From Octopus vulgaris (Eukaryota): a stretch of 64,000 bases of DNA. The notes below the pieces were generated by a model, which saw only the letters and a program-made list of their open reading frames with translations, did no database searches and was not told the DNA's origin. The position numbers and the translations under genes are program-made. The DNA is taken from assembly GCA_951406725.2 (NCBI GenBank), contig OX597815.1:26908001-26972000 (forward strand). The letters are read 5' to 3'. Shown piece after piece: positions 17,456 to 39,963 of this stretch. Each line of letters opens with the position of its first letter. Positions within the stretch are counted from its first letter, which is position 1.

Positions 17456-17575
17456 CTGAAAAGAAAAGAAAATAAGCAATTTATATACTGTTTGTACAAT
17501 TGGAAAATTTTAATGTAAAGCAGATACAAATAAGGAAGAACATTGCATGATTTCTTGCGTGTGTGTATGGAGGTG

Positions 17576-17643
<68 letters not shown>

Positions 17644-18090
17644 CTGTCTGTCTGTCTGTCAGTCTGTATGTGTGTATGTTTGTATTCCTGTGGTGAGGGT
17701 CAGAAATTTCACTTGGTATTCAGATAGTGCTTGATTACTTCCTACACTGATAACCTGATGCTAATAACAGATATCTCAAGGAGATACAAAGCAGCTTCCA
17801 TACATGGACAAACAGTTTAGAGGTGAAAAAGTTATGGTAGGGGATTAGATGGGTGGCAGAATTTTTTTTTTTGATGTTAGTGTTGCAAATAGTTAGGCCA
17901 TTTACATTACAGAACGTCAAGCACCTCACAAACTTATGCATACATACACATATGTATGTGTATGTGTAAGTGCATATGTACATTTGTGTGTGTATATGTG
18001 GATATATATACATATATATAGGGAGAGTTTACGAAAAAAACAAAAGATGAAGACAGGTGGTGTACAAAACAAACAGATGTATTAGTATAA

Positions 18091-18161
<71 letters not shown>

Positions 18162-18162
<1 letters not shown>

Positions 18163-18550
18163 CATCATTATCATAATCACCCTTTAACGTCCATTTTCCA
18201 TGCTGGCATGGGTTGGATGGTTTAACTGAAAACTTGTAAGCTGGGAAACTGCACCAGGTTCCTATCTAATTTGGCATGGTTTGTATGGCTAGATGCCCTT
18301 CCTAAAGCCAACCATTCCAAGAGTGTATTGGGTGTTTTTCATGTGTCACCAGCAATGGTGCCAGTTACATACCATCGGCACCAGCCACAACTACGATCTC
18401 ACTTGGCTTGACAGGTCTTTTCAAGTAAGCCAAATTGCCAAAGGTCTCGGTCACTTGTTACTGCTTCCATGAGGCCCAACGTTTGAAGGGTGCTTTTTAC
18501 ATACCACTAGCACAGGTGTCAGTTTTGTGACACTGGCATCAGCCACGACT
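18162..18550 (-). repeat. Family B retroposon copy, degenerate
   Basis: (CAT)n then TTTAACGTCCATTTTCCATGCTGGCATGGGTTGG. Confidence 0.7.
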
Positions 18551-18572
18551 CTCTCTCTCTCTCTTGCACATG

Positions 18573-18604
<32 letters not shown>

Positions 18605-18619
18605 CACAATTCTTATATA

Positions 18620-19970
18620 GGCAAGGATCCGTAGGTGTGTTGGTCTACATTTACAGAAGCTGTTTTGGCTCCATCTTAGAATAGGATCAATGTGAGAAGT
18701 AATTCTATTGCAAAGCAAAATGTTATAGAATTTTTAGGCTAAAAGTGAGAGTGTATTTCTTTGTAATTCTGAGGCAAGTAAAGATCATCATCTTTTGAAA
18801 GTAGAATAACTGAAGACTTTAAAAAAGCTATTGATTTGTTTACTTTAAGGGCATTTTTGAAGCTTTTCAGTGGTAAATGGGCCAATCTGGATTGGCATGC
18901 TATCTCCTGCTTTGTGGTTGAAGAAAGGATTGTCATCAAATTTGGTGTTATATAACCCCGTGTTACCAAGTAACAATTTAAAGTGCTGAAACCAAGCATT
19001 TAGGGACTTGTCAGTGGTTTCCCCCAAAATATGCAGAATCACTGCAGATCTCTTGTTACTAAGTTTCCTCAAAGCTGCCCTTTGTAGAGGTTGTTGCATT
19101 CTTTAGGTTTGGATTTAATGTGTATTTCTAGTGCCTCTTTGTATGCTTGATCAAGTGAAATTTTAGCTGAACTGAGATTCCTTTCATTACTCTTGGGGAA
19201 CATAGATTAGTATTTGTGGGTTGTTTTCTTCAAATCCTTTCTGGTTTCTGTTACTTTCTCATTGGAAGCAAAGGTTAGTTGTCTTTCTTCATTTCTTTGG
19301 AAGCAATTCCAGTGTTATATCTCTACTGGTAGAGGTTAGGTTATCATATAAAAAATTGTGTCCTTAACTACAATTCTTGTCCTTAACCCTTTAGCATTTA
19401 AACCGGCCATATCCGGCCAAAAGTATTCTGCCTGTTTTATGTTCAAACTGGCCAGATCTGGTCTCTCACACCAGCCCTACAATATCGTTTTAAAAATTAA
19501 CAGCTACCTCATCAAAATCTCATAGTAACAAGATAATGCCTGATTAGTTCAAAACAATGTGGATAAAAAAGGATTAATTTTGGCAGAATAATGTGAACAC
19601 TAAAGGGTTAAGCCTGTTACAGAGAGGAACAAACTTGTGTACTGCAACAGTAAACTTATTACACAGATCGGTTGCTTTTGCTCAGTTGATTGGTTTCATA
19701 GGATTTCTAACTCATACTATGTCCTTCCAGTAACTTATGTGGCTTTTGTATGAAACAGTTCTATGGTTAGATATAACACCTTCAAAAGTGTTGTGTGCAC
19801 ATGAATTTTTAATGTTTTTAATGCACTTCTTTCTAGTTAGGATTCAGCAGAACTGAGTGAGGCTGCCCCAATATGACACTATATCCAGAGCTTGCATGAA
19901 TGGTTCTGAAGTCTTGTTTTAGTAGCAACAATATTCTGCTGTTCCTTGAATCCCTTTATGTGCTTACTAT
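18620..19970 (-). mobile_element. Decayed non-LTR retrotransposon fragment (endonuclease-RT linker region), interrupted by a MITE
   Basis: Broken ORFs with NAWFQHFKLLLG..IGPFTTEKL and LKSFKNALKVNKS; many stops and frameshifts. Confidence 0.45.
19387..19607. mobile_element. piggyBac-like MITE
   Basis: TTAA|CCCTTTAGCATTTA ... TGAACACTAAAGGG|TTAA: CCC/GGG termini and a TTAA target duplication. A related reverse copy lies at ~63610-63808. Confidence 0.85.
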
Positions 19971-20591
19971 TCAACTTCTGTTGGTGAGGAGTGAATCTGA
20001 AGTGAAGTCTCTAGCTGTTGAACTATGGTATTCTAGATGGAACAGTCAAAGCCCTTTTCATTCATCATCATCATTTAATGTCTATTGTCCATGCTGGCAT
20101 GGGGTGGACGGTTTGACCAGAGCTGCACCAAACTCCAGTCTGATTTGTCATGGTTTCTATTGCTGGATGCCTTTCCTAACTCGAACCACTCTGCAGAGTG
20201 TGGTGGGTGCTTTTACTTGGAACTGCGAAAAAAAAAAAAGCACCCAGCACACCATTATGTATGGAAAAACCATCCTGTTGGTATGTGTATGCATGTGTGT
20301 GTCTGTGTGTGCATGCCCATATGCATGCACATATATGCACATAGGTAGATGCATGTGAGTGGATGTGTGCAGGGGTATGCAGTGTACAGCCTGCTACTGC
20401 AGGGATTACAAAAATATTTATGGACTTTAATATCTCAGGTAAAGTCTGCCTAAGAGGAAGAATTTTAAAACTGATACCACAAACCTGCCAGGGGCATTAA
20501 CCTATTGTCTCAGTTCACTTTCTTACATCCACCTACTTACACACACATATGCACACACACTTGTACACACACCACAACACATCACATGAAC

Positions 20592-20630
<39 letters not shown>

Positions 20631-20904
20631 ACAAACACACACACACACACAGAGGCATGTATGCATGATGATGACAATAATGACATATATATATATATAT
20701 ACATACACACACACATACATGCATATATATATATATATATATAAACACACACACACACACACACACATGGTTGCTGTTATTGATTTATTATTGTTATTGT
20801 TGTTGTGGTTGTGTCAAGATTATTTTATTTTCTTCTCTCCTCTACTATGTATGTATGTGGGGAGTTGCAAATTGCGTATGTGCATGTGTGTGTGTGTGTG
20901 AGTA

Positions 20905-20944
<40 letters not shown>

Positions 20945-22218
20945 TGTGTGTGTGTGTGTGTCTGCCTGAATATGTATAAAGAAGGTGTGGCTTCCACTGC
21001 TTTCCTCAGATTGACTTTTTGTCTCACTCCTATTAATGCCATCCTACAAATTCAAACTCTGTCAACCCCTATTCTGTCATATCAATGATGCTGAGTGTGA
21101 TTTGCACAACTGGAATATTTTAGGGCAAACGTCCCTCTAAGCTTTGTATTTTTTGCTGTGAATACTGAGGAGGTGTTTTGATTGTGTTATACCATTTTGC
21201 TAATTGGCTTGCATAGCAACGGCAGTTGATTTACCGAAACACATGTATGTTTTATTAAATGTTAAAAATTCAATATTTTCTGTGTTTATTATTACTATAA
21301 CATGGCTCTTATTCTACATGCTAGCCTATCTGGTGGTTTGATGGTTTTTGTCTAATTATGGTGGGTGTAGAAGCGGAGTGTGGAACTTTCTGAACTCAAA
21401 CCTTTGGTTACGTTTCGCATCTTCCAGTACACTTATTTTCTATATATATATATATCATCATCATCGTTTAGCGTTCGCTTTCCATATGTGTGTGGTGTGT
21501 GTGTGTGTGTGCATATGTGAGTGTAAGTAGGTAGATGTACGTGTCTGTTTTCAGTCATGGCAAATATCATTTCAATAATGAATGAAATGAGAAAACAAAT
21601 GTAATGCATATATTATCACAAGATATTGATTAGATTCCCAAAGACTACAGGTTGCTTTAATAACCCACTTGAGATTATACTAAAGTTCTGTTGTCCTGGC
21701 AACCTGTTCAGTATTGTGACCAATACCAATTGTTATACTGGCAATAAAACTTTTCAATTGCTTTATTAAATTTAAGTGAAGGACCTTTAACTGTTAGTAA
21801 AGATAGAAACATTCTCTTTCAATTGAAAATAAACACTTGATGTATGTAATATTGTTGGTAGAGAGCACAGAAGATAAGCTTAAAAAGGAGTTGCACAGAC
21901 AATAACCATTTCTTACCTGCCTTTTCAGTTTATGACTGGATGATGGAGATAAATGTGTGAAGTTAGCGCAGCTAACAGTATAATTTTTTAAAAAAATGAT
22001 GCTGGTGGACTATTAGAGATGTACATATGTATAGAGATAGTTGTTTCAGACAATTGTAATCTGGGGAAGAAGGATAATTGCTAGTGTGTGGTTCTAGATG
22101 AGCTTCAATAATGCAGAGTTGTGGCATACAGGAAGTTAACTGAATGGCTAAGTGGGACCACAGATCAGGAAAAGGATGAAAGTGTTAGCAGATACATTTC
22201 AAGAGTTTGAAGCCTCTG

Positions 22219-22374
22219 CTTACCAACCACATGGTTCCAGGTTCAGTCCCACCGCGTGGCACCTTGGGCAAGTGTCTTCTACTATAGCCTCGGGCCAACC
22301 AAAGCCTTGTGAGTGGATTTGGTAGACGGAAACTGGAAGAAGCCCGTCGTATATATGTATATATATATATATAT

Positions 22375-22407
<33 letters not shown>

Positions 22408-22636
22408 GTGTATATGTTTGTGTGTCTGTGTTTGTCCTCCCACCATTGCTTGACAACCAACGGTGGTGTGTTTACGTCCCTGTAACTTAGCGGTTCAGCA
22501 AAAGAGACTGATAGAATAAGTACTAGGCTTACAAAGAATAAGTCCAGGGGTCGATTTACTCGACTAAAAGGCGGTGCTCCAGCATGTCCACAGTCAAATG
22601 ACTGTAACAAGTAAAAGAGTAAAAGAGTAAAAAAGA
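22219..22636 (+). mobile_element. SINE family A, 5'-truncated
   Basis: Starts near the B-box region; family A tail with (GTAAAAGA)n. Confidence 0.85.
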
Positions 22637-22869
22637 GGTGAGATACAATAGGAGTGAGTTCAGCTTCTTGTTCAAAAGTTGATGGTGCACAAAGAAACCT
22701 TTTCTACTTTGTTTATTGATAGTGTAGCCTGACACTGTTGCCTAAACTGTAGTGCCTGATTGGTATCTCATAGAGGTGCTCTTTAGTGGTACTTGGCAAA
22801 GTTGCCTTGCAAGTGACCCAAAAATTATGTCCAACAATGTTGTGCTACAGTACTGACTGATGATGCTAT

Positions 22870-23390
22870 CTGTTTGTGGTTCCTGATAGTGATGGCTGGC
22901 AGTGTTGTTTGATAATTTATCTAAATGTGTTAGCTGCCAGTGTTGGCTGACAGTGTATCTGACAGTCATATCTGACAGTGTATCTGACAGTCATATCTGA
23001 CAGTCATATCTGACAGTGTATCTGACAGTCATATCTGACAGTGTATCTGGCAGTATTATCTGACAGTGTTGCTTGACAGTGTTGCATGATCATAGAGCAA
23101 TGTTATCTGAAAGCACTGTTTGACAGTGCTGCATGATAATGGTTCTGACAATAGTACTTAACAGTGCTTATCTTATAATGTTACCTGGCAATGTTATCTG
23201 AGTGTTACTTTACTATGGTACCTAACAGCAGTACCTTACAGTTATTTGAGAGTGTTATATGACAGTATTACTTGACAATGTTAACTAACAGTACTCTTTG
23301 ACTACTTTTTAATAGCTGTCTGGTATTATTGTCAGACAATATTTTGTGACTGTGGTATCTGACCATATTGCCTAGAAGTGTTGGCTGACT
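22870..23390. repeat. Minisatellite of 12/13-bp units (CTGACAGTGTAT / CTGACAGTCATAT)
   Basis: Near-perfect units at ~22947-23046, decaying on both flanks. Confidence 0.85.
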
Positions 23391-23726
23391 GTGTTTGAAA
23401 ACACCATCTGCATGCACAGATAACATAAAGTTAATGAATATCTGTATTAGACTCTAGACTTTGAGATTTAAATTTCCATGTGTTTAATACCCAATCATTA
23501 AAGAACAAAAGAAATTTTTTATGTTCATGCATATTTAATATATTGTAGTACAGCGTTATGTGTTTTTCCTAAAAAAAAAAAGAAGTTAATGTAACTCAAC
23601 AGAACATGAGTTACAACCCAAAATAATTGTAATATATGCATGTTCACAACATTTCTCAGATAATTAATGCAAATGAATTAACTTTAGAAAGTACATTGCT
23701 CTACTTTGTTAAGCATTGTAATATAT

Positions 23727-23811
<85 letters not shown>

Positions 23812-23813
23812 TG

Positions 23814-23859
<46 letters not shown>

Positions 23860-23873
23860 TATATATATATGTG

Positions 23874-23919
<46 letters not shown>

Positions 23920-25224
23920 TACACACACACATATATGTGTGTTATATTCATGTATAATGCTATGGCATGAGAGCACTTTGTATATCGAAATAGTTAACAT
24001 TGTATATATCGTATTGTATATATTGCATGATATAATTTAATACTGGCCTCATTCTTAAGGATGTAGAACACTTTCTTGTGATAAATCATTTATATTTTTT
24101 TTCTCAAAGACATGTCAAGATATGTTCTGAGTGTGTATATATTACTCTCTTTTCTATTTGGTAATTCTGCCTGTTCTTTTATGTTTTGTGTTTTTACATG
24201 AAAAATGCATAATGGCATGCTACTTACTGTAAGATGTTTATGTATAGTTATAAAACCTCTCCCCCCAATAATGATTGTGTATGCAGCATATAAAACACTG
24301 AAATCCCAAAATCACGAGATTCATACAGACACATATTTAGTTGAGTACACACACACACATGCACACACATGCACACACATGCACTCACGCACATGCACAC
24401 ACACACATGCAGAAATTTCCATATTATATGCTACCATGGTGACAATATATCAAATTAGAATAACCCAACATGGTTGTACAAGAAAAATGCCAGAATTTTA
24501 TATGAAATGCCAAATTGTAAGTGTACTAGCTCTGCAGTACATCAATAATTTAGTTTACCAATATTGCAGTATAAATCCAGAATAATGGCTGATGTTAATG
24601 ATATCTTGCATTGGAACAAGGCCACATAATTTTAAGGTACTTGTTATATTAACCCTGAAATGATAAACAGCAAAGGTGAAGTTTGTGGGATCTAAATTTA
24701 ATGGAACGAAACTAAATACTTTAACACATTTGGCTTGGCACTCTACCATTTTCTCTATTCCGTTTTTTGGTAGTTGATAATGATAATTACTATTTCTTTT
24801 CATAAAAAACAAAGCTGATTTTTTTTTTACAATAGGAAGTTTACTGGCATCTACAGAGGCATTCTTGATTTGTTGAGAATGCAAAGAAGTCTTTGATTCT
24901 TTGATTCTAAAATTTGAATATTAAATCACTGAGATTTTGAATGAATAATGCATCTACTTTCATTCACTACAATATTTTCAATATGTTTGAATGAGTATCC
25001 TACAAAAAATTACTTATTTCCTGGTTTCCTTTTGTTTCTCCAGTATTTGAACTTTTCACTTAAATCTCATGTGACACTACTTGTTTTGATTTTATTCTAG
25101 AAACAGGTTTTGATCAAAATAAGTCAGGTTAAGCTTGAAGTTTCCTCATCAAAAGCAGAGAAAGCTATGCGAATTACAGTTGCTTTCAGCTCAGACTAAG
25201 TTGCCATACTATTTTCTCAACCAG

Positions 25225-25510
25225 CACCGCCTTGACTGGCTTCTGTGCCGGTAGCTCATAAAAAAAGCACCAACTGATCGTGGCCGATGCCAGACCCCTC
25301 TGGCACCAGTGCAGGTGGCACGTAAAAAGCACCCACTACACTCGCGGAGTGGTTGGTGTTAGGAAGGGCATCCAGCTGTAGAAACACTGCCAGATCAGAC
25401 TGGAGCCTGGGGCAGCCCCTGGCTCCCCAGACCCCAGTCGAACCGTCCAACCCGTGCTAGCACGGAAAACGGACGTTAAACTATGATGATGATGATGATG
25501 ATGATGATGA
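25225..25510 (+). repeat. Family B retroposon copy
   Basis: Conserved 3' end and (GAT)n tail. Confidence 0.8.
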
Positions 25511-26139
25511 AGCCCTACTAAAGTTATGCATAATTGTTTCTGGAAATGATGCATGCATTTGAACACCTTGAATTATTTTGTACTGAATACTTTCACTGGT
25601 TTTGATTATACTTAAAGCTCAGCTTTATTCATCATTTTATCTTATTACTCGTTGTCATGGTTGATAAGCTACATAAGATTATAGATTGTGACATAGCAAT
25701 ATTGTCAGCATCTAATGAAGTCAGTCGTGAGTAACAATTTATCATATACACATATATACATTCAGATGACTTTAGAATCCTCAATGCTAATATAAATACT
25801 ACAGTCATCTGGGAACTCTAACAGCTCTGCTTAGTATCAGTTATCCTTCAGTTGTATAAGCTTCTAAGATATTAAAGTATAGACCTTATATTGGTATAAA
25901 AGTCTCCAAGGAGGTTCATATTAACCCTTATGGTAGAACTATAATCTCTTCTTGTAGATAATAGAAAGACATAATGCAGTATAAAACGGTAATATAGCAA
26001 CAATTTGAACGTCAGTATCAGCAACATTGGGGAGAGTAGTATTTTTGATTGACTAAATACTTGCATCAAATTATTTCTGAATGGAAAGCCTACTCCATGC
26101 TGGAGCTTCTATGTCTATTAAATAAATACACTATACATT

Positions 26140-28170
26140 TGTTGTAGGGAATTAGTAATAATGGTACATCCCTCCCATGTGATGAATGGAATAACCTAGT
26201 CACTATAAGTAAAGAGGAGTACCTTGTAGGCGGTCAGAGATAGTTGTGTCTTTACTGGTTTTACTAAGTATAATGTATACCGAAGTGGGCATTATAACGA
26301 TCCAACATTTGAAGGATTATAACAGTGGCAAGAAGGATTAAACAATTCATGAGAAATTAATAAACTCCATGAGGAATTAACAGTTCATGAGAAGTTAACA
26401 AACTCACGAAGTTTTGTTGTGTGAATTTTATGAAAAATAACCATAAAAATTATGGAAAATTTGTTGACCAGTTTGCTTGAGTTGCAAAAGCAGCAACAAT
26501 AACAACTGAAAGAACAACAACAACAATTACTATTACAGCAACAGGTGCTGTTATTAATGAAGTCGTCAGGAAATTCAGAAAAAGTGTTCTTGCCAGACTA
26601 TATTATGGAGTACAGCATATGTCATGTTGTCCTCATCATTGTTTTACTCTATGTTCAGACATTTCCAATGTGTGTTGAACAATGAGCTTTTTACACTGGA
26701 AATTTTACACAATATATCTATTGTGTCATTAAAGTTTATATCTGAAAGTTTTTTTGGGAGTACATAATTACTGTATTCTTCATGTTCTGTTGCCACCAGT
26801 TTTCTCGAGATTAAGTGCATTTTAATCTTGTCCTAATTTTTACATTCTTTCTCGAAGATTTGCTCATATCTTCTGTAGTATGCTTTGAAGGTAACTCCTT
26901 CATCTGGTTTGTATATGCTGGTAGAGTAAACAGGGAATGTGAGAAATTTAAGCTGGACAAATTAACGCCTGATATGTTCAATTACCTGATTTTTTTACAC
27001 AGACACTTACTGCTGAAAAGGACACAGTAGCTAGAACTAGAATTCTCACAAAGCTGGAACAAAACCAGGATGTAACCCTACAGCAAGTATCAGAAGAATG
27101 TGAAAGAATAGTCAAATTAAGACACAACACAGAGGAAATTGAATGGAAAGATTTTTTCCAAGTAAAACAAGTATGAAATAGTCAGAAAAGAGATAAAGTG
27201 TTTACTAAAAAGCACGACAAAAATCAGAAAATAAACCCATGTTTTGCATGTGGAGGTATACACCCGAGGAAAAATTGTCCATTTAATAAAGTGAAGTGCT
27301 TTCATTGTGGAAATATAGGAAATATAAAGACGTGCAGTAGAATGATGGTGACAAAACGTCAGAACAAAGGAAAAAGAATTAATAGTATGTCATCAGAAGA
27401 AATTGGTAATATAATGATGAGGGAATTCATGAATGTGAAAATCAGAAATACAAGTGTTAAAATGCAGTTGGACACTAGTAGTGATATCACCATTATAAAC
27501 GAAAAAACGTAGAAATATGACCTTAAGCCAAAATTAATTAAATCTAAAAAAGTAGCACATGGTGTTATGAGAAAAAGATTATATTTTTTTGGTGAATTTG
27601 TATGTAATGTAATATTTCAAGGCCTAACAAAAAAGGCAAACATATATTTATTAAACGATTCATTTAATCTATTAGGCACAGAGTGGGTGGAACTATTCAA
27701 AGTATGGAATACACCCATAAGTCTTTTGTATGAAAATATAGTCAGTTCAATTGAAGGTTCGAATGCAGTTGAGGGATTGAAACAAAAAATTGCAGTAAAA
27801 CAGAGTGGAACACTTGTATGTAAGCCAAAACGAAATAAAAAATTGCCCATGATAAAAAGTAAACATTGTTCAAATGAAGATGTTCCATGGTCAAGACAAC
27901 ACATTGATTTCACTGGTCCTTTAAATAGTCCATACTACTTAATGGTTGTTGATAGTTTCTTGAAATGGCTAGAAATTTGTAAATGTAAAAAAACCAACCT
28001 CCTCAACTATGATAAATTACCAAATGCATAGGTAAAATGACCTATTGGGAAAAAAGTAGAAAAGACATACAGAAAAGATATAGGAACCAGCAAAAAAAGG
28101 GATTCATGAAAAGTGAACCAAAGAATTTTTAAGAGTGTACTGTGTGACACTTTTCTAAAAAAGTGAAACC
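26140..28170 (+). mobile_element. Ty3/Gypsy LTR retrotransposon relic: 5' LTR, PBS, gag, protease, partial integrase; RT/RNaseH missing
   Basis: LTR TGTTGTA..TATAACA (26140-26324) followed by PBS-like GTGGCAAGAAGG. gag ATG at 26452; YAGRVNRECEKFKL; zinc knuckles CFACGGIHPRKNC/CFHCGNIGNIKTC; protease MQLDTSSDITII; integrase PWSRQHIDFTGP..LMVVDSFLKW. No 3' LTR seen; right boundary approximate. Confidence 0.85.
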
Positions 28171-29377
28171 GGTCAAGTGAATAAACATCATTAAAATTGC
28201 TTTTTCAAAATTTCTTTCATATATATGTATGTGTGTATGTATGTGCACATGTATGTATGTATGTGCACATGTATGTATGTATGTATGTTAGTATGTGTAT
28301 GTGTGTGTGTGCATCTAAATTTGCATTAATTCACCAGAAAGCAATAAATTATAGAACTCAATATGCAAAAGTAGAGTATTCTTTAATCTAAAAAAAATGT
28401 TAAGCTCAAAAATGTCCCTCCTCAGAATCCCTTTTTACAGCAGGCTTATTGGGCAGCATAATGTATAATGAACTTATTGTATACAGTGCTCAGGTGCTTT
28501 ACATATCTGAGCCTGCTTTCTCTAAAAGCATTGGACTTGTGAAAATATGTTAGTTTATTATTTTCTGAAAGTGTACCAGAGACACACCAATAGTTACATT
28601 TTTTTTAAAGAAGTTATGAGTCACATTTTTTATGTAAAATGGTTGTACAAAGATAACATATTCAATTATACAGTCTTCATAGCAGCTCTCATGGTTATGC
28701 ATTATTTACTTAACCATATTTCAGCTTTTATCTATCAATACCCCAAGTGTGTGTGTGTGTGTGTGTGTGTGGTGCTTATACATACACACACACACACACA
28801 AACATACACACACACAAAAACATACACTCACACACACATATACAGTAGGTGTGTATGTACGTGTGAATGTGTGTTGTTGAAAACATGACTATTTTCCTGT
28901 TACTTTCTGTGTTTCTTTTATCTCTTTTTACCAATTTCTTTCAATTATTCAGTATGAATGGTTTGAAAATAATAATATTCCAAGTTCCATTGATATTTCA
29001 AGGTGTCTTTGATCTTATCCTCCAGAGGAAAACATTTGCACTGCTGGATGTGATTGTTACTTTTTGTTGTTACCTTCATTGTTGTTGTCATGTTTAGTCC
29101 TGAGGTCACCCCTGATCAAATAAAATCTATAATTTAAATAAATTCCTGTCATCTCATCTTTTATTCTTTCAGACATGAGACATTATTGAATTTGTACTTC
29201 CCATTTTTTAAAAATTTAGGTTGATGTAGCTGCTACTCCTTACAGACCAAACAACCATGTAGAACAGTGTTTCTCAATCATTTTTCGCCTAGGGACACCT
29301 TTGATTCCTGTTTACTTGGATGTATCCTCCTAGTCATTTGATGTTTTAAAAAATCGTATTATATTTTTATTATTAAA

Positions 29378-29773
29378 CTAGCAGTATCGCCCGGCATTGC
29401 TCGGGTTTGTAAGGGAAATAACTATATAAGCATTTTTAGAGAGTTATAGCCAAAAAATAGCAAAAAAATGCATTAAAAATGGAAAAAAAATTATGGTAAA
29501 TTTTTTTAAATCGTTGACTCATCGTAGACATTTTTAGAGAGTTACTTCCCTTATATAATAGCGAAAAAATGCATTAAAATGGAAAAAAAGGATGGTAAAT
29601 TTTTTTTAAAATTGTAGACTCATCGTAGATGCGCGCTAATACCCAGAAGGGCTCGATATGAATCACGACTATAAGATACCCGGTTTTGGTTAAACTGCAC
29701 AGCAAAATGTGGGAGTAGTTAGGAATCTAAATCGTAGGAGACAGACACATAACTTCACTTTTATATAGAAAGA
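29378..29773 (-). mobile_element. Non-autonomous Helitron (396 bp)
   Basis: Minus strand A|TC ... hairpin-CTAG|T; its 3' ~75 bp are nearly identical to the 3175-3535 copy. Confidence 0.8.
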
Positions 29774-30134
29774 TATTATTAGGAACTGTATTAAAAAATT
29801 GTTAAAATATTTTGTGTATTGTAAAAGTGGCACTCTGTCAGTTACAATGATGAGGATTACAGTTGATCCAATCAACGGAAGAGCCTGCTTGTGAAAATAA
29901 CGTGCATGTGACTGAGCACTCCACAGACACCTGTACCATTAACATAGTTCTCAAGGAGATTAAACATAACACAGAGATACAGGTACTACTCATTTTTGCC
30001 AGCTGAGTGGACTGGAGCAATGTGAAATAAAGTGTCTTGGTCAAGGACACAACATGTTGCCAGAAAGAGAACTCATGACCTTTCGATCATCAGCCGAATA
30101 CCCTAACCAATAAGCCACATACCTTCACATCATT

Positions 30135-30559
30135 CTCTTTTACTCTTTTACTTGTTTCAGTCATTTGACTGTGGCCATGCTGGAGTACCGCCTTTAGTTG
30201 AGCGAATCAACCCCAGGACTTATTCTTTGTAAGCCTATTACTTATTCTATTGGTCTCTTTTGCTGAACCGCTAAGTTACGGGGATGTAAACACATCAGCA
30301 TCGGTTGTCAAGTGATGGTGGGGTGGGGGGAACAAACACAGACACACAAACACACAGACACGTACACACACACATATATATATATACATATATACGATGG
30401 GCTTCTTTCAGTTTCCGTCTACCAAATCCACTCACAAGGCTTTGGTCGGCCCAATGCTATAGTTAAAGACACTTGCCCAAGGTGCCACGCAGTGGGACTG
30501 AACCCGGAACCATGAGGTTCATAAGCAAGAGCTACTTACCACACAGCCACTCCAACGCC
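30135..30559 (-). mobile_element. SINE family A, full-length copy
   Basis: Family A head and tail. Confidence 0.9.
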
Positions 30560-31129
30560 TATAGGAGTATATAGAAGTATTATAGAAGCATAACCTATTT
30601 ATTCGAGAAAAATATAAACAACAAACTCTTATATGGTCCCCCAAGGGCCAAATGGACCCTGGTTCAGAACCACTGGTATAGAAGCTTCCTCGTTGGCTCA
30701 CTTTTAATTTTTGTTTTTGTTTTTCATTTTTTAAAAAAATTTCATGCAAGAATCATGCAAATTCTGTTGGCAGCTCTGTTTCTCATTGATTATCTCTGAA
30801 CTTTAATATTTCTCTGGTCAATGGTATCAGGTTTCTGGACACAGTTGGAATATGGTCTCATCATTTGCTCCAAGTTTCAGTTTGCTTTGCTATTACTACT
30901 AGAAGATGCTATTTAAGCTCTAACCCAAATCAATACCAACCGCATTTGCAACATTTTTCATGAAGAATATTTTTGAGCGAGAATGTCTTAAAATGGACCC
31001 CGGAGCTCTATTACTGCAAACCAAGCAAAGACCATTATAATAAAGAAGTATAAGAATACCAAAAAAAAGACTAATAGAAACACCGGAAATAGAGCACAGA
31101 AATGTTATCAATAACACATTTCTAAATAG

Positions 31130-31758
<629 letters not shown>

Positions 31759-32717
31759 TATGTATGTGCATATATAAATACACACACACACACACACACG
31801 TTATGCATGCTTTCATAGACATCTGCATCAAAAGAAATGTGCGAGAGAGGATGAGAATAAAGTGTAATCTTTATTATCAGTCACAATCTTCCAATCAGCC
31901 TTTCTATGTTGCAATTGATAATAAGTCTCTTTAAATTCCCTCCTTTCATATTCTTTATTACTTATCATTTCCTCCATCAATGCCAACATTGTTGGTTGCA
32001 CTAGTAGCTGATCTATAATCATAATACAATTTTTATTTATTTATTTTTCCTTCTGTTCTTTTTTTTGTTGTTGTTATTGTTATAATCTTCTCAGTTCTTT
32101 ATTTATCATGTTCACCTTATAAACTAAAGTAATACCGAAGCCAGTTGTTATTGACATCAGTCACAGTTTAACTCTTTTGATACCAACCTACCTGAAACCA
32201 CCACTGGATTCGATGCTGCAAAGTTAATTGTTTTAAAGTAATCTTAATTAAAAAACCTCTATCAAAATTTCCTATTAATTTATATTCCAAACACCAGCTT
32301 AATAATGAAAAAGCTATTTTACTAAATTCTTCATTATTTTTGAAATTAATTGAAATAAAAGTAATTTATTTATTAGAAATATGGTAACAAAAGGTTTAAG
32401 AAGCTAATACAAGATATATCCAAAACTTAAAAGTATTTCATAATTGTTTCAAGCAGGCAATCTGAAATCTCAACAAATGTTCTTGATTGGTATATTTAAT
32501 TAGAAAATGGTTATCGTTTTTGTGAAGGAGTCATGATTATAAATAATGTGTTCAATTCCTAGATGGGTGGCACAGTGTGTCCTTGAACAAAGCCCTTCAT
32601 TTCAAGTTGCTCCTGCTTAACTAAAGATAAGTAGCTGTACTATTTCTGGTGCAGCCCTCTCTCTGCCTTTAGCCGTCTCATCTTAGATGGTCAAAGATGG
32701 AACGGAGGTTTGTGTAG

Positions 32718-33428
32718 ATACAAACCAAAGGAGACACATTTCAAAGGAGACACAAACCAAAGGAGACACAAACCACAGAAACCAAAGGAAACACATGCCA
32801 AAGGAGACAGAAACCAAAGGAGACACATACCAAAGGAGACAGAAACCAAAGGAGACAGAAACCAAAGGAGACACATACCAAAGGAGACAGAAACTAAAGG
32901 AGACAGAAACCAAAGGAGACACATACCAAAGGAGACAGAAACTAAAGGAGAAACAAACCACAGGAGACAGAAACCAAAGGAAACACATGCCAAAGGAGAC
33001 AGAAACCAAAGGAGACACATACCAAAGGAGACAGAAACCAAAGGAGACATGTACCGAAGGAGACAGAAACCAAAGGAGACACATACCAAAGGAGACAGAA
33101 ACCAAAGGAGACACATACCAAAGGAGACAGAAACCAAAGGAGACAGAAACCAAAGAAGACACATACCAAAGGAGACAGAAACCAAAGGAAACACATGCCA
33201 AAGGAGACAGAAACCAAGGGAGACACATACCAAAGGAGACAGAAACTAAAGGAGACAGAAACCAAGGGAGACACATACCAAAGGAGACAGAAACCAAATG
33301 AGACAGAAACCAAAGGAGACACATACCAAAGGAGACAGAAACCAAAGGAGACAGAAACCAAAGGAGACACATACCAAAGGAGACAGAAACCAAGGGAGAC
33401 ACATACCAAAGGAGACAGAAACCAAAGG
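32718..33428. repeat. Minisatellite, 16-bp unit with two main variants (~44 units)
   Basis: GAGACAGAAACCAAAG and GAGACACATACCAAAG interspersed; this explains the long repetitive ORFs in the track. Confidence 0.95.
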
Positions 33429-33585
33429 TGGTTTGTGTCTGCTCATAACAACACAGGCACTTAAAACAATTGATACATTCTACCAAGTTATACACGTGTG
33501 TGATGGTTGCGTTATTGTAATGTTTTCAAAACTTACCTAAGCAGATATATGCTGCTGCTTATAACAAATAGAGCAAGTTGCAATA

Positions 33586-35095
33586 TCATCATCATCATTT
33601 AACATCCACTTTCCATGCTGGCATAGGTTGGATGGTTTGATAGGGGCTGGCTAAGCAGAAGACTGGACCATGTTTCTCTGTCTGTTTTGGCATGGTTTTT
33701 TTTTACAGCTGGGTGCCCTTCTAACCACCAACCATTTTACAGTGTGGACTGGATGCTTTTTACATGGTACCATCACTGGCAGGGTCACCAAGTAACTTGC
33801 AAGACAAAGATCTTTTGAAAGGAGATGGGGCATTGGAGGAGATAATCTTGTGCCAGATTATGAAAGGTTAGAGTCTAACAGTGAAACAGAAACAGGTGAC
33901 TTGTTGTAGAGGAGGTATGTGGTAACCCGGTCAGACAGGCAAAGAGAGTGTGATCGAGATTGAGGCTAGGAACAGGTGTGTTGTTGTAGCGGAGATACAT
34001 GTTTAACCAGTCAGAGGGAGAGAGCAAGAGAAAGAGAGAGCGTGGAAGAGAGCAGGAGAGAAATGGTGATGAAGTACTAGGACATGTTCATAAGAAACAT
34101 GGACCAGAATATACATGGGATGGTCGAGAAAAACAAGGGAGAGGTGGCAAAGTGGAAGGGCTATTCTCAAGACACTGGGTCAGAATGTAAATGGTAGGGT
34201 ATTGCCAAGGCACGTGGGTAGGGAGTAGGGACTTCACATAAATTCAAAGAGTGTTGGAGTGGGGAATGCAGTGACTGATAAAACCTGGGTATATAGAGGT
34301 GGTGGGGAAGATCAGGATAGCAATGATACAGTGAGTAGGGCAGTGAGGACAAGACTGGGGAGCAAGACATAAGCAAAAGCTTAGTGCATGAAAAGAGGAA
34401 ATGTGAGGAAGAGGAGAGATGTAGTTTGGTTTGTTGGGGTACGGTGTGGAAAAGTTTTATAGTTACATGTGGGTGGAATCCACAGTGCTTCTAGAACTCA
34501 GTTTGCTGAAGTGGGAAGGTTTGCTGAAGAAACTTGTATTGCCAGACATCTCAATCCATTGTCATCTCTTCCATGATGCCCAACATCCTGGAATCGATCC
34601 TCACCATATCTTTCTGGCTTGTTGGCACCTCTTCTACAGGTGCCAACCACTCTCAGTGATCGGTACTTCTTTATGCAGCTGTCTTCATGCATATGCATCA
34701 TATGTCCAAGTCAACGTTGTCTTCTTCTCTGCATGTTACATCTGATTCCTCTTATGCCCAACTTTTCTCTCAACATATTTGCACTTTGTCATATGTGCAC
34801 ACTGATGTTACACATCCAAAGGAGCACACTACCACCATTCTTCTCTAGTCTGCACATGTCTTCTGCATTCAGAACCCAAGTCTCACTACCATGGAGTGTT
34901 TGTACATAAGCATCATGCAATCTATTTCACTCTGAGAGAGTCCTTTTGTTGCCAACAGAGGCAAAAATTCCTCCATTCAGTTCTTATTCTAGAAACAATA
35001 CTTTCAGAACATCTTCAACCATTGCTAATTTGGTCACCTAGGTAACAGAAACTATCCACAACCTCAAAAAAGCCTCCAAGGCATTTGAGAAGTAC
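33586..35095 (-). mobile_element. RTE-clade LINE 3' portion (ORF C-terminus plus long purine/pyrimidine-biased 3' UTR ending in the family B (GAT)n tail)
   Basis: Minus-strand peptides VVDSFCYLGDQIS, HGSETWVLNAED and MMHMHEDSCIKKYRSLRVVGTCRRG (RTE C-terminal type). The 3' end matches family B. Confidence 0.7.
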
Positions 35096-35809
35096 ATTTA
35101 TATTAATTAACAGAAATGCACAAAACTATAAATAATGGGGAAAAACACACACACACACACACACACATAAAATGATATAAAAGAAATAAGCCTTAAATAT
35201 TAAGATTCAACTTCTATGATTTACTCTTTAAATTTTCTCTTCACCTAAAGGTGATAGCTTGACTGAATTATTAAAATATCAGATCTCTACATTCAGAGAC
35301 CAAATTCTACTGAGATCAACTTTGTATTTAATACCATTAATCAGCTATATGATTCCAAAATATGTGTTAGAACTCGGTATTTGTTCACACATTTCCCATT
35401 AATAATTAACTTAAAATTTAAAATGTTATTTCCAATCAATTTCTTAGAGCAAATTACATCTTAACAATCATAAGTTTTGACACTTTATCTTCTCTTTCAT
35501 AATATTTAGACACATTTACATCTGACCATTCATACATTAAGTGTTAGTACTGTGTAGTGAGGTTAATTTCACAGCCAGGTTTCACTTGTTGAATAGACAG
35601 CCTTGCACTCTATTTACACCTTGCACTAGTGAACTCACTTATAATTAATAGCCTTAGGAAGAATGTGCTTCATTAGGCTGATAAAGAATTTTGTTGAGTA
35701 CACAACCTGAAAACAGAGGTTCAATGGTAACAGCAAAAAGAGAAATTGAAGATGCTCCAAATATATTTCAGTAGTGCATCAGATATGTTGGCAAATAATA
35801 TAAAATTGT

Positions 35810-36109
35810 GGAGGCACATGGCCTAGTGGTTAGAGCAGCAGACTAGCAGTCGAGGGATCGTGGGTTTGAATCTCAGACCGGGCAATGTGTGTGTTTATGA
35901 GCGAAACGCCCAAGCTCCACGCAGCTCTGGCAGAAGGTAATGGCGAACTTCTGCTGACTCTTTCGCCACAACTTTCTCTCACTCTTTCCTCCTGCATCTT
36001 GCAGCTCACCTGCGACGGGCCGGCGTCCCGTCCAGGTGGGGAACCTATATGCCAAGGAAACCGGGAAACTGGCCCTTATGAGCCAAAGATGGCTCGAGAA
36101 GGAACAAAC
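35810..36109 (+). mobile_element. tRNA-derived SINE family D (V-domain-like core) with 14-bp TSD
   Basis: TGGCCTAGTGGTTAGAGC A-box, GGTTTGAATCTC B-box, CTGCGACGGGCCGGCGTCCCGTCCAGG core; AAATAATATAAAAT on both sides. Confidence 0.75.
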
Positions 36110-36669
36110 AAATAATATAAAATGGCAATGGTGAGGCAGAGCCTAAAAGTAAACCAGCAGTTGGGAGTTGTTATTGTGTAATCTCGATTATTAGCCTTGA
36201 TCCCATGGATATATGATCAAAGATATTCCAACCCAGGCCATCCTGTGTTGCTTTTGTCTTTTCTCCAGGCAGAGTGCATTGAGTACCTTACTATTCAATG
36301 TTTTTTAAGATATAGTTGGATGTATTTTAAGGGACAGTTGCTTGCTATTTCTAGAAAACAGAATGGTGCATCAACTGGATGTTGTCAGTAACATAAAGGT
36401 TCACATTCATGAAATGGGGGCAACAATGTTATTATTCAGCTTCATAATGATTTAGAGATAACAGTTGTTAAGCAACTCTACATGAGAGCTAAAGTATTTG
36501 GAAGAAAGTGCTCTGGAAACACTGCCAAAGCCTTGTTAGTAAATATACTTGGTTCTGTGGAATGATGCTTCTTTTCAGGATAGTTGATCTCATTCATATT
36601 TGGTGTCTATTAAGTATCACATTGCATTAAGTTCATCTCTAGACTACCTGTGCCAATTCCATCATCATA

Positions 36670-37075
36670 GGCATAGGCGTGGCTGTGTGGTAAGTAGCTT
36701 GCTTACGAAACACATGGTTCCGGGTTCAGTCCCACTGCGTGGCACCTTGGGCAAGTATCTTCTACTATAGCCTCGGGCCGACCAAAGCCTTGTAAGTAGA
36801 TTTGGTAGACAGAAACTGAAAGAAGCCCATCGTATATATGTATATATATATATATATGTATGGGTGTGTGTGTGTATATGTTTGTGTGTCTGTGTTTGTC
36901 CCCCCAACATCGCTTGACCACTGATGCTGGTGTGTTTACGTCCCTGTAACTTAGCAGTTCGTCAAAAGTGACTGATAGAATAAGTACTAGGCTTACAAAG
37001 AATAAGTCCTGGGGTCAATTTGCTCAACTAAAAGGCGGTGCTTCAGCATGGCTACAGTCAAATGACTGAAACAAG
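36670..37075 (+). mobile_element. SINE family A, full-length copy
   Basis: Family A head and tail. Confidence 0.9.
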
Positions 37076-37256
37076 TGTATATTAAAGTAAATGATCAAAT
37101 CACTTTAATTTTTCATTTAAACCTTTTTGTACCACACTGTCTGAGACCATCCAAGGTTCTATGATACAAATTTATTGTTTTAAAGAGATCCAAATTAAAA
37201 GCTTCCATAAAAATTTACATTAATTTATGTTTAGAACACTAGATTAACTATGACAA

Positions 37257-37600
37257 AATTGCAGCGTGGAAGGTGTTTATAAGCCATTTAAGAAACACAC
37301 AAAACCATTAGATTCACTTCAACATTTAAGCTTAATTTGTCAAAAAATATTTTCGTCGCTTTGAGACCGCGACCTGTTCACTGACAAAACATTGTGCTGC
37401 ATTGTGATGCTTTGTCAGTGAACAGATCACGGTCTCAAAGCGACGAAAATATTTTTTGACAAATTAAACTTAAATGTTGAAGTGAATCTAATGGTTTTGT
37501 GTGTTTCTTAAACGGCTTATAAACACCTTCCTTGCTGCAATTGTTTTTGTTCCAGTACATGATCTCAGATCAAGTCACTCGCTATGCAAGTACATCTCCG
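37257..37600. mobile_element. Fold-back mini-element (Penelope-like inverted pseudo-LTR type) with hammerhead-like motif in each arm
   Basis: Inverted arms 37257-37388 and 37411-37542, a 22-nt spacer, and an unpaired 58-nt extension. Direct repeat TATGACAAAATT at 37249-37260 and 37604-37615. Confidence 0.7.
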
Positions 37601-38297
37601 TAATATGACAAAATTATTTTGCTAAAAATTTTTTAAAACAAACACTGTGTACTTCAACAGAATTACAGTAATGTGGCTATATTTCTGACCCTCTGCTCTG
37701 TGTAGTGTCACTGAAGTCAACTTTGCTTTCATCTTTTTATAATCAATAATCTTAAAGTGCCAGTCAAGTACAATGGATTAGTGGAATTGTAAGAACATTG
37801 GATGAAATGGTTTGTAATATCTATTTCAGTTCTGTGCATTCTGAGTTTAAATCTGATCTCCTGTCACAAGGAAAAACACAAATAAACAAACATTGGTGAC
37901 ATTTCTGTCATGATCTCAGACTGGCAAAACTGACATGATACCAGCCCTTGTAAAGCAAACAGAAACACACTTTCCTTAGTTTGATCAGAAGATCAGCTGC
38001 AATACAACGACTGAATTATTAATCGGATAACTGGTTTCTTGAAGAGACAGATAATCAGGTTGTAGAAAGCATTACAAATCATTTTGTAAAATATTTAAGA
38101 GATGAAGTGTCTGTCAGACAGTGTTAACCATGCATCACCACATGTATGTGCTGGCCTGGACATGATTTTTTTGAAGAAGACAAGCAGTTGCCTATGTAAA
38201 AAAACTCCCCACTATCTACACCAATGATGTTTATCCAAGGGAAAGTACTTCAACTTAGACCAGTACAATATGGTACTAGTGTTGTCACAGGTTTGCT

Positions 38298-38329
<32 letters not shown>

Positions 38330-38500
38330 TCTTTACTACCCACAAGGGGCTAAACACAGAGGGGACAAACAAGGACAGACAAAGGGATTAAGTCAATTAC
38401 ATCGACCCCAGTGCGTAACTGGTACTTAATTTACCGACCCCGAAAGGATGAAAGGCAAAGTCGACCTCAGCAGAATTTGAACTCGGAACGTAACGACAGA
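38330..38500 (-). mobile_element. SINE family C, 5'-truncated
   Basis: Reverse complement of the 63170-63401 copy (GCCTTTCATCCTTTCGGGGTCGGTAAATTAAGTACCAG). Confidence 0.8.
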
Positions 38501-38551
38501 CGTTAAACAATGATGATATTGTCAATAGATCATATATCCGAATAAGAAGCA

Positions 38552-38618
<67 letters not shown>

Positions 38619-38704
38619 CAGTAAGTCATAAATCCGAAAGAGAAGCACACTCTAAATTATGGAGCTGTAGAGTAATTAGATAAAGACAATTATGGCAAGT
38701 CAAT

Positions 38705-38765
38705 GGGGTTACCCAGGGTTTCATGCCCATAAAGCACTTGACTTTTCAGCGTCTCATCAGACCCT
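38705..38765 (-). ncRNA. Minimal type I hammerhead ribozyme motif
   Basis: 5'-AGGGU CUGAUGA [stem II GACGCUGAAAAG..CUUUAUGGGCAU] GAAA CCCUGGG UA|ACCCC-3'. Stem I GGGU/ACCC, intact core, palindromic stem III ACCC(U)GGGU, GUA cleavage triplet. Confidence 0.75.
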
Positions 38766-38772
38766 AAAGTTT

Positions 38773-38828
38773 AGGGTCTGACAAGACACTGTAAAGCACT
38801 TTATAGATGCGAAACCCTGGGTAACCCC
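38773..38828 (+). ncRNA. Mirror-copy hammerhead motif with G8A core mutation (probably inactive)
   Basis: AGGGU CUGACAA GACACUGUAAAG CA CUUUAUAGAUGC GAAA CCCUGGGUA ACCCC. Confidence 0.6.
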
Positions 38829-38873
38829 ATAGATTGGCTATGATTATCTTTATCTAATTAATATATGTGTGTG

Positions 38874-38922
<49 letters not shown>

Positions 38923-38992
38923 ATTGTCTACCAAATCCACTCAAAAGGCTTTGCTCAGCCCAAAACTAATGACTGCCAATTCACTGCTTTAA

Positions 38993-39579
38993 CCCTTTCG
39001 TTACCAACCCGGCTGAAACCGGCTCTGGTTCTGAGTACAAATGTCCTGTTTTCAAAAGTTTTGAATTAAAATCTTCCACCAAACGTTAGTCACAATTTAT
39101 GTTCCTAACACTTGCTGAATGATAACTTAGTTATTTTACTAAATTCTTTGTTATCATCATCATCGTCGTTTAGCGTCCGCTTTCCATGCTAGCATGGGTT
39201 GGATGGCTCAACTGGGGTCTGGGAAGCCAGAAGGCTGCACCAGGCCCAGTCTGATCTGGCAATGTTTCTATGGCTGGATGCCCTTCCTAACACCAACCAC
39301 TCCGTGAGTGTAGTGGGTGCTTTTTACGTGCCACCGGCACAGGTGCCAGATGGGGCTGGCAAACGGCCATGGTCGGATGGTGCTTTTTACGTGCCACCGG
39401 CATGGAGGCCAGGCGAGGCTGGCAAACGGCCACGATCGGATGGTGCTTTTTACGTGCCACCAGCATGGAGGCCAGGTGAGGCTGGCAACGGCCACGATCG
39501 GATGGCGGCACTGGCAACGGCCACATTAATAATTGAAAGAAACACAGAGCATCTCAAAATAAATACAGTAATGAAAGGG
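38993..39579. mobile_element. piggyBac-like MITE with a nested family B insertion (39152-39525)
   Basis: TTAA|CCCTTTCGTTAC ... GTAATGAAAGGG|TTAA. Degenerate relatives at ~32168-32399, ~37118-37670, ~53581-53808 and ~62798-63594. Confidence 0.85.
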
Positions 39580-39628
39580 TTAAACATGACAAGAGAAACT
39601 AAAACAGGAATAATACAGTTCTACTTAC

Positions 39629-39963
39629 CCACGAAAACAAATTCAATACAAAAAGTATGTATTTAAGAACCTTTGTCCGATATTTGTATTTCCGTTTTTT
39701 CTCCTCATACTTTGGATCTAAGCGACTACTACTTTTACGGACAGCCACAGAATTGTTTTCCACAACAGTAGTAATAGAGTTACTATCTACTATTGTAGCC
39801 ATAGAGTTTGTGATTGCAGATGTGGCCACTGAATTGTTCTCTATTGCATAAGAGGTACTGGGAATTTCTTCAATGCCTTCATCTGTACCTGAATCTTCAG
39901 GACTTGCTAAACTGCAGTGTGAATGGGCTGAGTAGCGATCCCGGGATGAAGAAGGATGTGTAT
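39629..39963 (-). CDS. TspanC8-type tetraspanin exon: long N-terminal cytoplasmic region and first half of TM1
   Basis: TTTCTTTATCTATTTTAG| 335 nt |GTAAGT. Open frame xTHPSSSRDRYSAHSHCSLASPEDSGTDEGIEEIPSTSYAIENNSVATSAITNSMATIVDSNSITTVVENNSVAVRKSSSRLDPKYEEKKRKYKYRTKVLKYILFVLNLFSW; KYxLFxxNxxxW is the tetraspanin TM1 signature. Joins the exon at 17455 in phase 0. Confidence 0.9.

What the first reader, a model, noticed from the sequence alone, without database searches (positions are those of the whole stretch)
38613..38860. Palindrome of two back-to-back minimal hammerhead ribozymes in the tetraspanin intron
Seen: arms 38673-38768 and 38770-38860 meet at one central base (ACCCTAAA-G-TTTAGGGT), and a one-sided extension runs to ~38613, partly duplicated at ~38516-38557. 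The minus arm has an intact core (GGGU CUGAUGA..GAAA CCCUGGGUA ACCC) in the host pre-mRNA sense, ~860 nt past the 39628 donor. The plus arm has CUGACAA; both cores are explicable as CpG decay of CUGACGA. Known: type I minimal hammerheads with palindromic stem III occur in Penelope-like elements and retrozymes and cleave as dimers. Inference: with 37257-37600 this suggests a class of non-coding fold-back retro-elements. Either transcribed strand contains a ribozyme preceded by its own antisense arm, which would silence cleavage and yield a long hairpin (ADAR/Dicer substrate), possibly explaining tolerance in introns.
Basis: partly seen in the sequence, partly recalled or inferred. Interest (0 to 1): 0.85.

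Follow-up and report, generated by a model that had tools for sequence, protein, structure and literature searches.

The report
Mirror-image stump of a Penelope retrotransposon
This 244-base palindrome in a tetraspanin intron is two head-to-head copies of the ribozyme-bearing end of a Penelope-like jumping gene, likely joined at the moment of insertion and now likely decaying without a role for the host, and such junctions pile up just before the ribozyme in three related families.

Summary
In detail: two inverted minimal type I hammerheads meet at 38768-38770 inside a phase-0 tetraspanin intron. It is not a separate non-coding class. Longer genomic copies continue upstream into a decayed RT + GIY-YIG frame with Hydra-clade PLE motifs, so this is a heavily 5'-truncated Penelope-like insertion in (TA)n: one arm with the ~55-nt tail, one without. 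Junctions differ between copies (25 of 41 carry an inverted piece; 16 are short+tail, none short+short or tail+tail), so the mirror half is likely built at each insertion. Core retention (15 of 32) fits neutral decay. Inverted pLTR plus tail is published PLE anatomy, and the scan reached the same reading in a shark genome (e1-7858806). Not found in my searches: truncation points cluster just 5' of the hammerhead in three families; a young intact sister family shows short+tail in 18 of 18 resolved pairs and four 5' ends just past the cleavage site; and the 37257 palindrome is a second such family whose hammerhead-like core has a swapped G3-C8 pair. Best mechanism: two-primer reverse transcription from two initiation sites. 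Cleavage, expression and intron enrichment are untested.

The parts
38617..38767 (-). Long arm: 3' end of a PLE (pLTR with hammerhead plus tail); family positions -57 to +93 relative to the cleavage site
   Evidence: 89% to the family consensus
38706..38764 (-). Minimal type I hammerhead in host pre-mRNA sense: stem I 38764-38761/38709-38706, core 38760-38754, stem II region 38753-38723, GAAA 38722-38719, quasi-palindromic stem III 38719-38711, predicted cleavage after 38710
   Evidence: layout matches published Hydra-clade hammerheads; activity untested
38617..38672 (-). Tail (about 55 nt) present on one arm only
   Evidence: two discrete 3' ends, near +37 and +93, across 41 copies
38768..38770 (.). 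Junction, 3 bases that align to neither arm
38771..38860 (+). Short inverted arm without tail; family positions -57 to +37
   Evidence: 82% to the family consensus
38774..38827 (+). Second hammerhead, G8 changed to A and a 5-nt gap in loop II; predicted dead
   Evidence: G8 requirement from PMC8495972 passage
38585..38615 (.). (TA)n target microsatellite at the tail end; a short TA run then (TG)n follows the short arm at 38861
   Evidence: same flanks in other copies
38516..38557 (-). Extra copy of the outer tail (family +57 to +93)
   Evidence: 86%
37257..37603 (+). Second, unrelated family with the same build: short inverted arm 37257-37392, long arm to 37603 with ~60-nt tail; hammerhead-like folds starting 37411 (+) and 37388 (-) with G3-C8 in place of C3-G8
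17456..39628 (-). Host intron (phase 0) splitting the first transmembrane segment of a tetraspanin-like gene
   Evidence: splice inferred from sequence only

Best explanation
The palindrome is a heavily 5'-truncated insertion of a Penelope-like retroelement with Hydra-clade motifs, whose two hammerhead-bearing arms were likely made and joined head-to-head during one insertion into a (TA)n repeat. Shown: the arm is the 3' end of an RT + GIY-YIG element; one arm ends at the tail end and the other about 55 nt earlier; junctions vary between copies. Inferred: the enzyme nicks both target strands and starts two cDNAs, one at each of two internal initiation sites, on two pLTR-bearing RNA units (probably from one tandem source locus); both often stop just after passing the hammerhead and their ends are joined by repair. 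Inferred: the copy has since decayed neutrally; in the host pre-mRNA it would fold as a hairpin that buries the ribozyme, as a by-product rather than a selected function.
For: Upstream of the arm, longer copies encode the GIY-YIG C-terminus and RT and align to an intact 717-aa sister ORF at E down to 2e-51; L102 carries an inverted short arm at its 5' end. Pattern-picked census: 25 of 41 with an adjacent inverted piece, 16 short+tail, 0 like-with-like, 9 other. Young sister family: 2249 exact motif hits; among the first 100 listed, 28 head-to-head pairs and 0 tail-to-tail; short+tail in 18 of 18 resolved pairs, 3 unresolved. 5' ends cluster just before stem I: 15 of 32 in a 20-nt window, p 7e-4; 11 of 44 resolved ends at -60 to -79 in the sister family. 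Core kept in 15 of 32, 14 expected from neutral decay. A purified PLE nicks and extends both strands and starts at two internal sites that bound the tail (PMC11167929). Opposite arms share rare haplotypes in 3 of 8 complexes and differ in 2 of 8.
Against: No named database hit ties the proteins to PLEs: Pfam found nothing for the 717-aa ORF, the PDB profile search gave only one chance-level hit, and 1036 homologues are unnamed; one homologue hits GIY-YIG weakly (E 0.0057). Assignment rests on motifs from PMC8557442. Arm lengths correlate in the sister family (rho 0.72, n 9) but not significantly here (rho 0.39, p 0.12, n 17), which fold-back also predicts. Some inverted pieces come from further upstream and barely overlap the direct arm (L158, L159, L239). 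One tail-to-tail pair occurs in family 2 (L269). The clustering test window was chosen after seeing the data and alignment ends are noisy at 13% divergence. The haplotype differences lie in a slippage-prone repeat.
Confidence: 0.8

Rival explanations
1. Same element, different chemistry: one cDNA is made, its 3' end folds back and primes a second strand on itself, and the hairpin is cut at the other end and opened into a palindrome (self-priming, close to the model in PMC3846280).
For: Arms of similar length with small junction loops; short overlaps at several junctions; shared rare haplotypes in 3 of 8 complexes; both arms of the window's family-2 copy share a 2-nt insertion.
Against: Either arm can be the longer one; several junctions are blunt or hold filler bases; arms differ by a whole repeat unit in 2 of 8 complexes; it does not by itself explain why one arm always stops at the short end.
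Confidence: 0.3
2. A non-autonomous fold-back element that is transcribed and retrotransposed as a fixed palindromic unit.
For: Many near-symmetric copies; family 2 has a sharp 5' limit about 18 nt before stem I and 10 of 20 pairs within 214-255 nt.
Against: Junctions differ in the 25 inverted copies listed and in family 2; solo arms and ORF-bearing copies exist; three family-2 copies share a longer upstream body and one abuts a GIY-YIG frame.
Confidence: 0.07
3. The copy has been kept by the host as a regulatory hairpin or conditional ribozyme in the tetraspanin pre-mRNA (ADAR or Dicer substrate).
For: Stable predicted hairpin; intact canonical core on the host-sense arm; intronic position.
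Against: Arms are 13% from consensus and 17% from each other; G8 is lost on one arm and stem II weakened on the other; family core retention is at the neutral rate.
Confidence: 0.05

Closest known systems
Hydra-clade Penelope-like elements (PMC8557442; includes Hydra-1_Obim and Penelope-13_HM)
   Same: C-terminal GIY-YIG, DKT, CxCX5C linker, CxxC and CxH around the conserved E and N, (TA)n targets, hammerhead near the 3' end with a 4-bp quasi-palindromic stem III; Penelope-13_HM is listed with an inverted 5'-truncated copy and a hammerhead on both strands.
   Different: This family's hammerhead flanks differ from the listed Hydra-1_oBim motif and my two probes had 0 hits in the supplement; it has an Asn/Ser-rich insert inside the endonuclease region; the tail is about 55 nt (63 in the sister family) rather than 30-40; this copy has no body left.
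PLE insertions with inverted pLTR and tail (PMC3846280; PMC8557442; PMC11167929)
   Same: Head-to-head inverted pLTRs, tail on one end only, palindromes at the junction, AT-rich targets.
   Different: Here both arms stop at the same base just 5' of the hammerhead; I found no paper reporting this clustering or a strict short+tail rule.
Metazoan minimal hammerheads of PLEs (PMC4209133)
   Same: Long stem II, short stem I, palindromic stem III; that paper notes dual min-HHRs 100-700 bp apart on opposite strands.
   Different: Here the two are about 17 nt apart core to core; family 2 has G3-C8, whereas that paper reports a U3-A8 variant.
Non-LTR (animal) retrozymes (PMC7229834 listing; bioRxiv 10.64898/2026.07.22.740005)
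   Same: Non-coding, type I hammerhead, PLE-related.
   Different: Retrozymes are direct tandem repeats; this is an inverted pair with variable junction and an autonomous parent.

Membership tests
EN+ Penelope-like element | Single ORF with PLE-type RT and C-terminal GIY-YIG upstream of the pLTR | tested here: met
   Decayed frame in longer copies aligning along an intact 717-aa sister ORF; motifs read by eye and from alignment; Pfam gave no hit for the ORF itself
EN+ Penelope-like element | Hammerhead in the pLTR, sense to the ORF | tested here: met
   Hammerhead about 125 nt after the stop codon in the consensus
EN+ Penelope-like element | 5' truncation, inverted 5' copy, tail at one end | tested here: met
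EN+ Penelope-like element | Partial tandem copies | tested here: inconclusive
   Seen in the sister family (2579-nt unit); not seen in this family's loci
Hydra clade | DKT in place of DKG | tested here: met
   L102 and the sister ORF
Hydra clade | CxCX5C linker | tested here: met
   L104, L173 and the sister ORF
Hydra clade | [quoted passage not shown] | tested here: met
   consensus translation
Hydra clade | RWK motif near the N-terminus | tested here: inconclusive
   Present in the sister ORF; the region is deleted or decayed in L101
Hydra clade | CCHH motif absent from the endonuclease | tested here: inconclusive
   Absent in the sister ORF; obscured by a low-complexity insert in this family
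Hydra clade | Insertion into (TA)n; length under 3 kb | tested here: met
   flanks; about 2.5 kb span in L101 and 2579-nt sister unit
Hydra clade | Placement with reference Hydra RTs in a tree | not tested
   reference proteins not in hand
Minimal type I hammerhead | Core C3 U4 G5 A6 N7 G8 A9, G12 A13 A14, A15.1-U16.1, H17 | tested here: met
   minus arm; the plus arm fails at G8
Minimal type I hammerhead | Stem II closed by G10.1-C11.1 | tested here: inconclusive
   Strong in the consensus (-11.6 kcal/mol); U11.1 and -5.5 in the minus arm; isolated arm does not fold as a hammerhead
Minimal type I hammerhead | Palindromic stem III allowing a dimer | tested here: met
   self-cofold -14.1 kcal/mol
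Minimal type I hammerhead | Self-cleavage | not testable with these tools
   needs an assay
Non-LTR retrozyme | Direct tandem units each with a hammerhead | tested here: not met
   inverted, not tandem
Non-LTR retrozyme | No coding parent | tested here: not met
   ORF upstream in longer copies
MITE or fixed fold-back element | Constant internal junction and symmetric ends | tested here: not met
   variable junctions, asymmetric ends

The most novel reading that the evidence does not exclude
The PLE hammerhead is chiefly an RNA dimerisation signal: its palindromic stem III holds two pLTR units together for a dimeric RT-endonuclease that primes both target strands, and when both polymerases read through it the dimer melts and synthesis ends, leaving back-to-back hammerhead palindromes as a fossil record of the reaction; cleavage at the upstream hammerhead sets the 5' end of some templates, and a natural G3-C8 ribozyme has spread to thousands of copies this way.
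Probability: 0.2. Interest if true: 0.75.

Novelty: new member of a known kind. Interest (0 to 1): 0.4.

Why it matters
As an object it is ordinary: a dead stump of a PLE. As a data set it is useful. How PLEs make their inverted, tailed insertions and what their weak hammerheads do are open questions (PMC8557442, PMC11167929). This genome holds a young family with intact ORFs and at least 2249 motif hits whose junctions can be read base by base, so two-primer versus fold-back synthesis, and a role of the hammerhead in ending synthesis or setting the RNA 5' end, become directly testable. It also warns that hammerhead palindromes and miRNA-like hairpins in such genomes can be insertion by-products.

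Tried and rejected
Rfam: no family at gathering score; weak matches were generic miRNA hairpins, no hammerhead. Protein searches with decayed fragments found nothing; Pfam on eight decayed fragments gave only chance-level hits, and nothing on two fragments from L045; PDB searches found nothing useful. The PLE frame in L045 belongs to another family (no arm at its 3' end). L171 and L172 hits are low-complexity relatives. L268, a hoped-for full-length family-2 copy, is two separate short insertions; L270 and L271 have unrelated sequence between the arms. Cleavage as the origin of the centre was rejected: the site lies 57 nt 3' of the junction. Lunse et al. on dimeric PLE hammerheads is not held; I saw only its citation, so a natural G3-C8 core may be in print there. 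Searches for G3-C8 or C3G/G8C returned only engineered mutants. Our-findings look-ups by sequence and by genome were empty. Family 2 could not be sampled further, so its parent element remains open.

Full report
Observation. The palindrome is real and folds as one hairpin, z -13. The minus arm carries the canonical hammerhead core at 38760-38754 and the plus arm a G8-to-A version at 38778-38784. The loose motif alone is within chance (2 found, 1.26 expected) and Rfam reports no hammerhead. The host intron runs from a donor at 39628 to an acceptor before 17455, joining in phase 0 to give a continuous hydrophobic segment; two downstream exons hit Pfam Tetraspanin below the cut-off. The genome is 2.8 Gb in 227 contigs; that it looks octopus-like is my recall of its repeats, not a tool result.

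Family. A DNA search gave 87 matches from 40 scored of 509 candidates. In the 30 loci printed (several are the same place seen twice), the build recurs: (TA)n, a short inverted arm, a variable centre, a long arm with an extra tail, (TA)n. Solo arms continue upstream into shared sequence. In L101, L102 and L104 this is a decayed frame with RT and GIY-YIG motifs; a consensus from 16 of 30 loci restores an open endonuclease C-terminus followed by the hammerhead. A protein search with an RT fragment exposed a young sister family with 717-aa open frames; the decayed frames align along it. Its 1036 homologues are about 700 aa, mostly on 2.2-3 kb contigs, all unnamed among the 120 listed. The motifs match the Hydra clade as defined in PMC8557442 (section 11, passages and supplement part 2 read), whose tables list an Octopus member, hammerheads of the same layout, and one family with an inverted copy and hammerheads on both strands. 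No tree was built.

How the palindrome forms. A pattern spanning the 3' half of the hammerhead, blind to the partner arm, gave 41 hits, all analysed. 3' ends fall in two classes (24 short, 16 tail, 1 other). 25 have an adjacent inverted piece: 16 short+tail, none like-with-like, 9 with small, decayed or upstream pieces. 5' ends run from -12 to -578 and junctions differ; 7 of 41 keep two full hammerheads back to back. The window copy has both arms starting at -57 with 3 filler bases. In the young family, the first 100 of 2249 hits include 28 head-to-head and 0 tail-to-tail neighbours within 6 kb, and all 18 resolved pairs end at +43 on one side and +106 on the other; 3 were unresolved. A purified PLE nicks and extends both strands and starts at two internal sites bounding the tail (PMC11167929, parts 1-2 of 4 read). 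I infer two cDNAs, one per site, joined at their far ends. Fold-back self-priming (PMC3846280, passages and discussion read) is the main rival. Haplotypes of opposite arms are shared and rare in 3 of 8 complexes, shared and common in 2, mixed in 1 and different in 2, which leans to two templates from one source locus but lies in a slippage-prone repeat.

Hotspot. 5' ends cluster just before stem I: 15 of the 32 ends between -13 and -110 fall in -51 to -70 (p 7e-4, window chosen after the fact). In the young family 11 of 44 resolved ends lie at -60 to -79, with 7 more cut by locus edges, and 8 of 28 pairs are under 200 nt apart. Four of the 44 lie at +3 to +7, just past the cleavage site, two of them heading full-length units, which hints that some templates were cleaved; in the finding's own family only 1 of 25 partner arms starts there. 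Arm lengths correlate in the young family (rho 0.72, n 9) but not significantly in this one.

Function of this copy. Arms are 13% from consensus. The 5' core is intact in 15 of 32 copies that reach it, against 14 expected neutrally.

The 37257 element. It shares no sequence with the first but the same build: 3829 exact hits of a 30-mer, 20 head-to-head and 0 tail-to-tail pairs in the first 100; 20 of 30 tail-anchored copies show an inverted arm, nearly all ending 57-63 nt before the tail end. Its sense strand reads as a minimal hammerhead with 7-bp stem I, 5-bp stem II, palindromic stem III and G3-C8 in place of C3-G8; that core is in 48 of 53 readable arms, 12 more unreadable. The engineered double swap partly restores activity. 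Three copies share a longer upstream body and one abuts a GIY-YIG frame with an upstream zinc-finger motif (E 2e-4), a single case whose link to the arm was not closed.

Verdict. A truncated PLE insertion with published anatomy: new member of a known kind. The extra value is the hotspot, the strict pairing rule and the swapped-core family, not found in eight literature searches, with one key paper unavailable. Supplement figures of PMC8557442 and PMC4209133 were not seen and may bear on novelty.

Noticed in passing
window 37388(-) and 37411(+): Hammerhead-like fold with G3-C8 swapped core in a family with at least 3829 exact motif hits; sharp 5' limit about 18 nt before stem I.
   Followed up: partly
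window 37247-37260 and 37604-37615: A direct repeat of about 12 bp flanks the family-2 copy, a likely target-site duplication at a non-(TA)n site.
   Followed up: no
L192 1739-3889 (G000:C11:8423500 onward) and many other places: Young PLE family with intact 717-aa frames, 2579-nt tandem unit, 63-nt tail and a hammerhead whose core has C at position 4.
   Followed up: partly
L198, L200, L262, L194+L195: 5' ends 3-7 nt past the predicted cleavage site in the young family, a hint of cleavage in vivo.
   Followed up: partly
window 38516-38557: Second copy of the outer tail, separated from the element by (CT)n(TA)n; a tiny second insertion or a local duplication.
   Followed up: no
L101 5716-6180; L104; L171-L173: Asn/Ser-rich in-frame inserts between the GIY and YIG halves of the endonuclease; N-rich inserts are reported elsewhere in rotifer PLE ORFs (PMC3846280).
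   Followed up: no
L269 (G000:C4:143621000-143622000): Family-2 palindrome with the tail on both arms, an exception to the short+tail rule.
   Followed up: no
L272 2-544(-): GIY-YIG frame with an upstream CX3CXXC motif between two family-2 arms; possible parent of family 2.
   Followed up: partly
window 39629-39988(-): The tetraspanin-like exon encodes a long Ser/Thr/acidic stretch before the first transmembrane segment.
   Followed up: no
window 39316-39504: Three 63-nt direct repeats within a common dispersed repeat.
   Followed up: no
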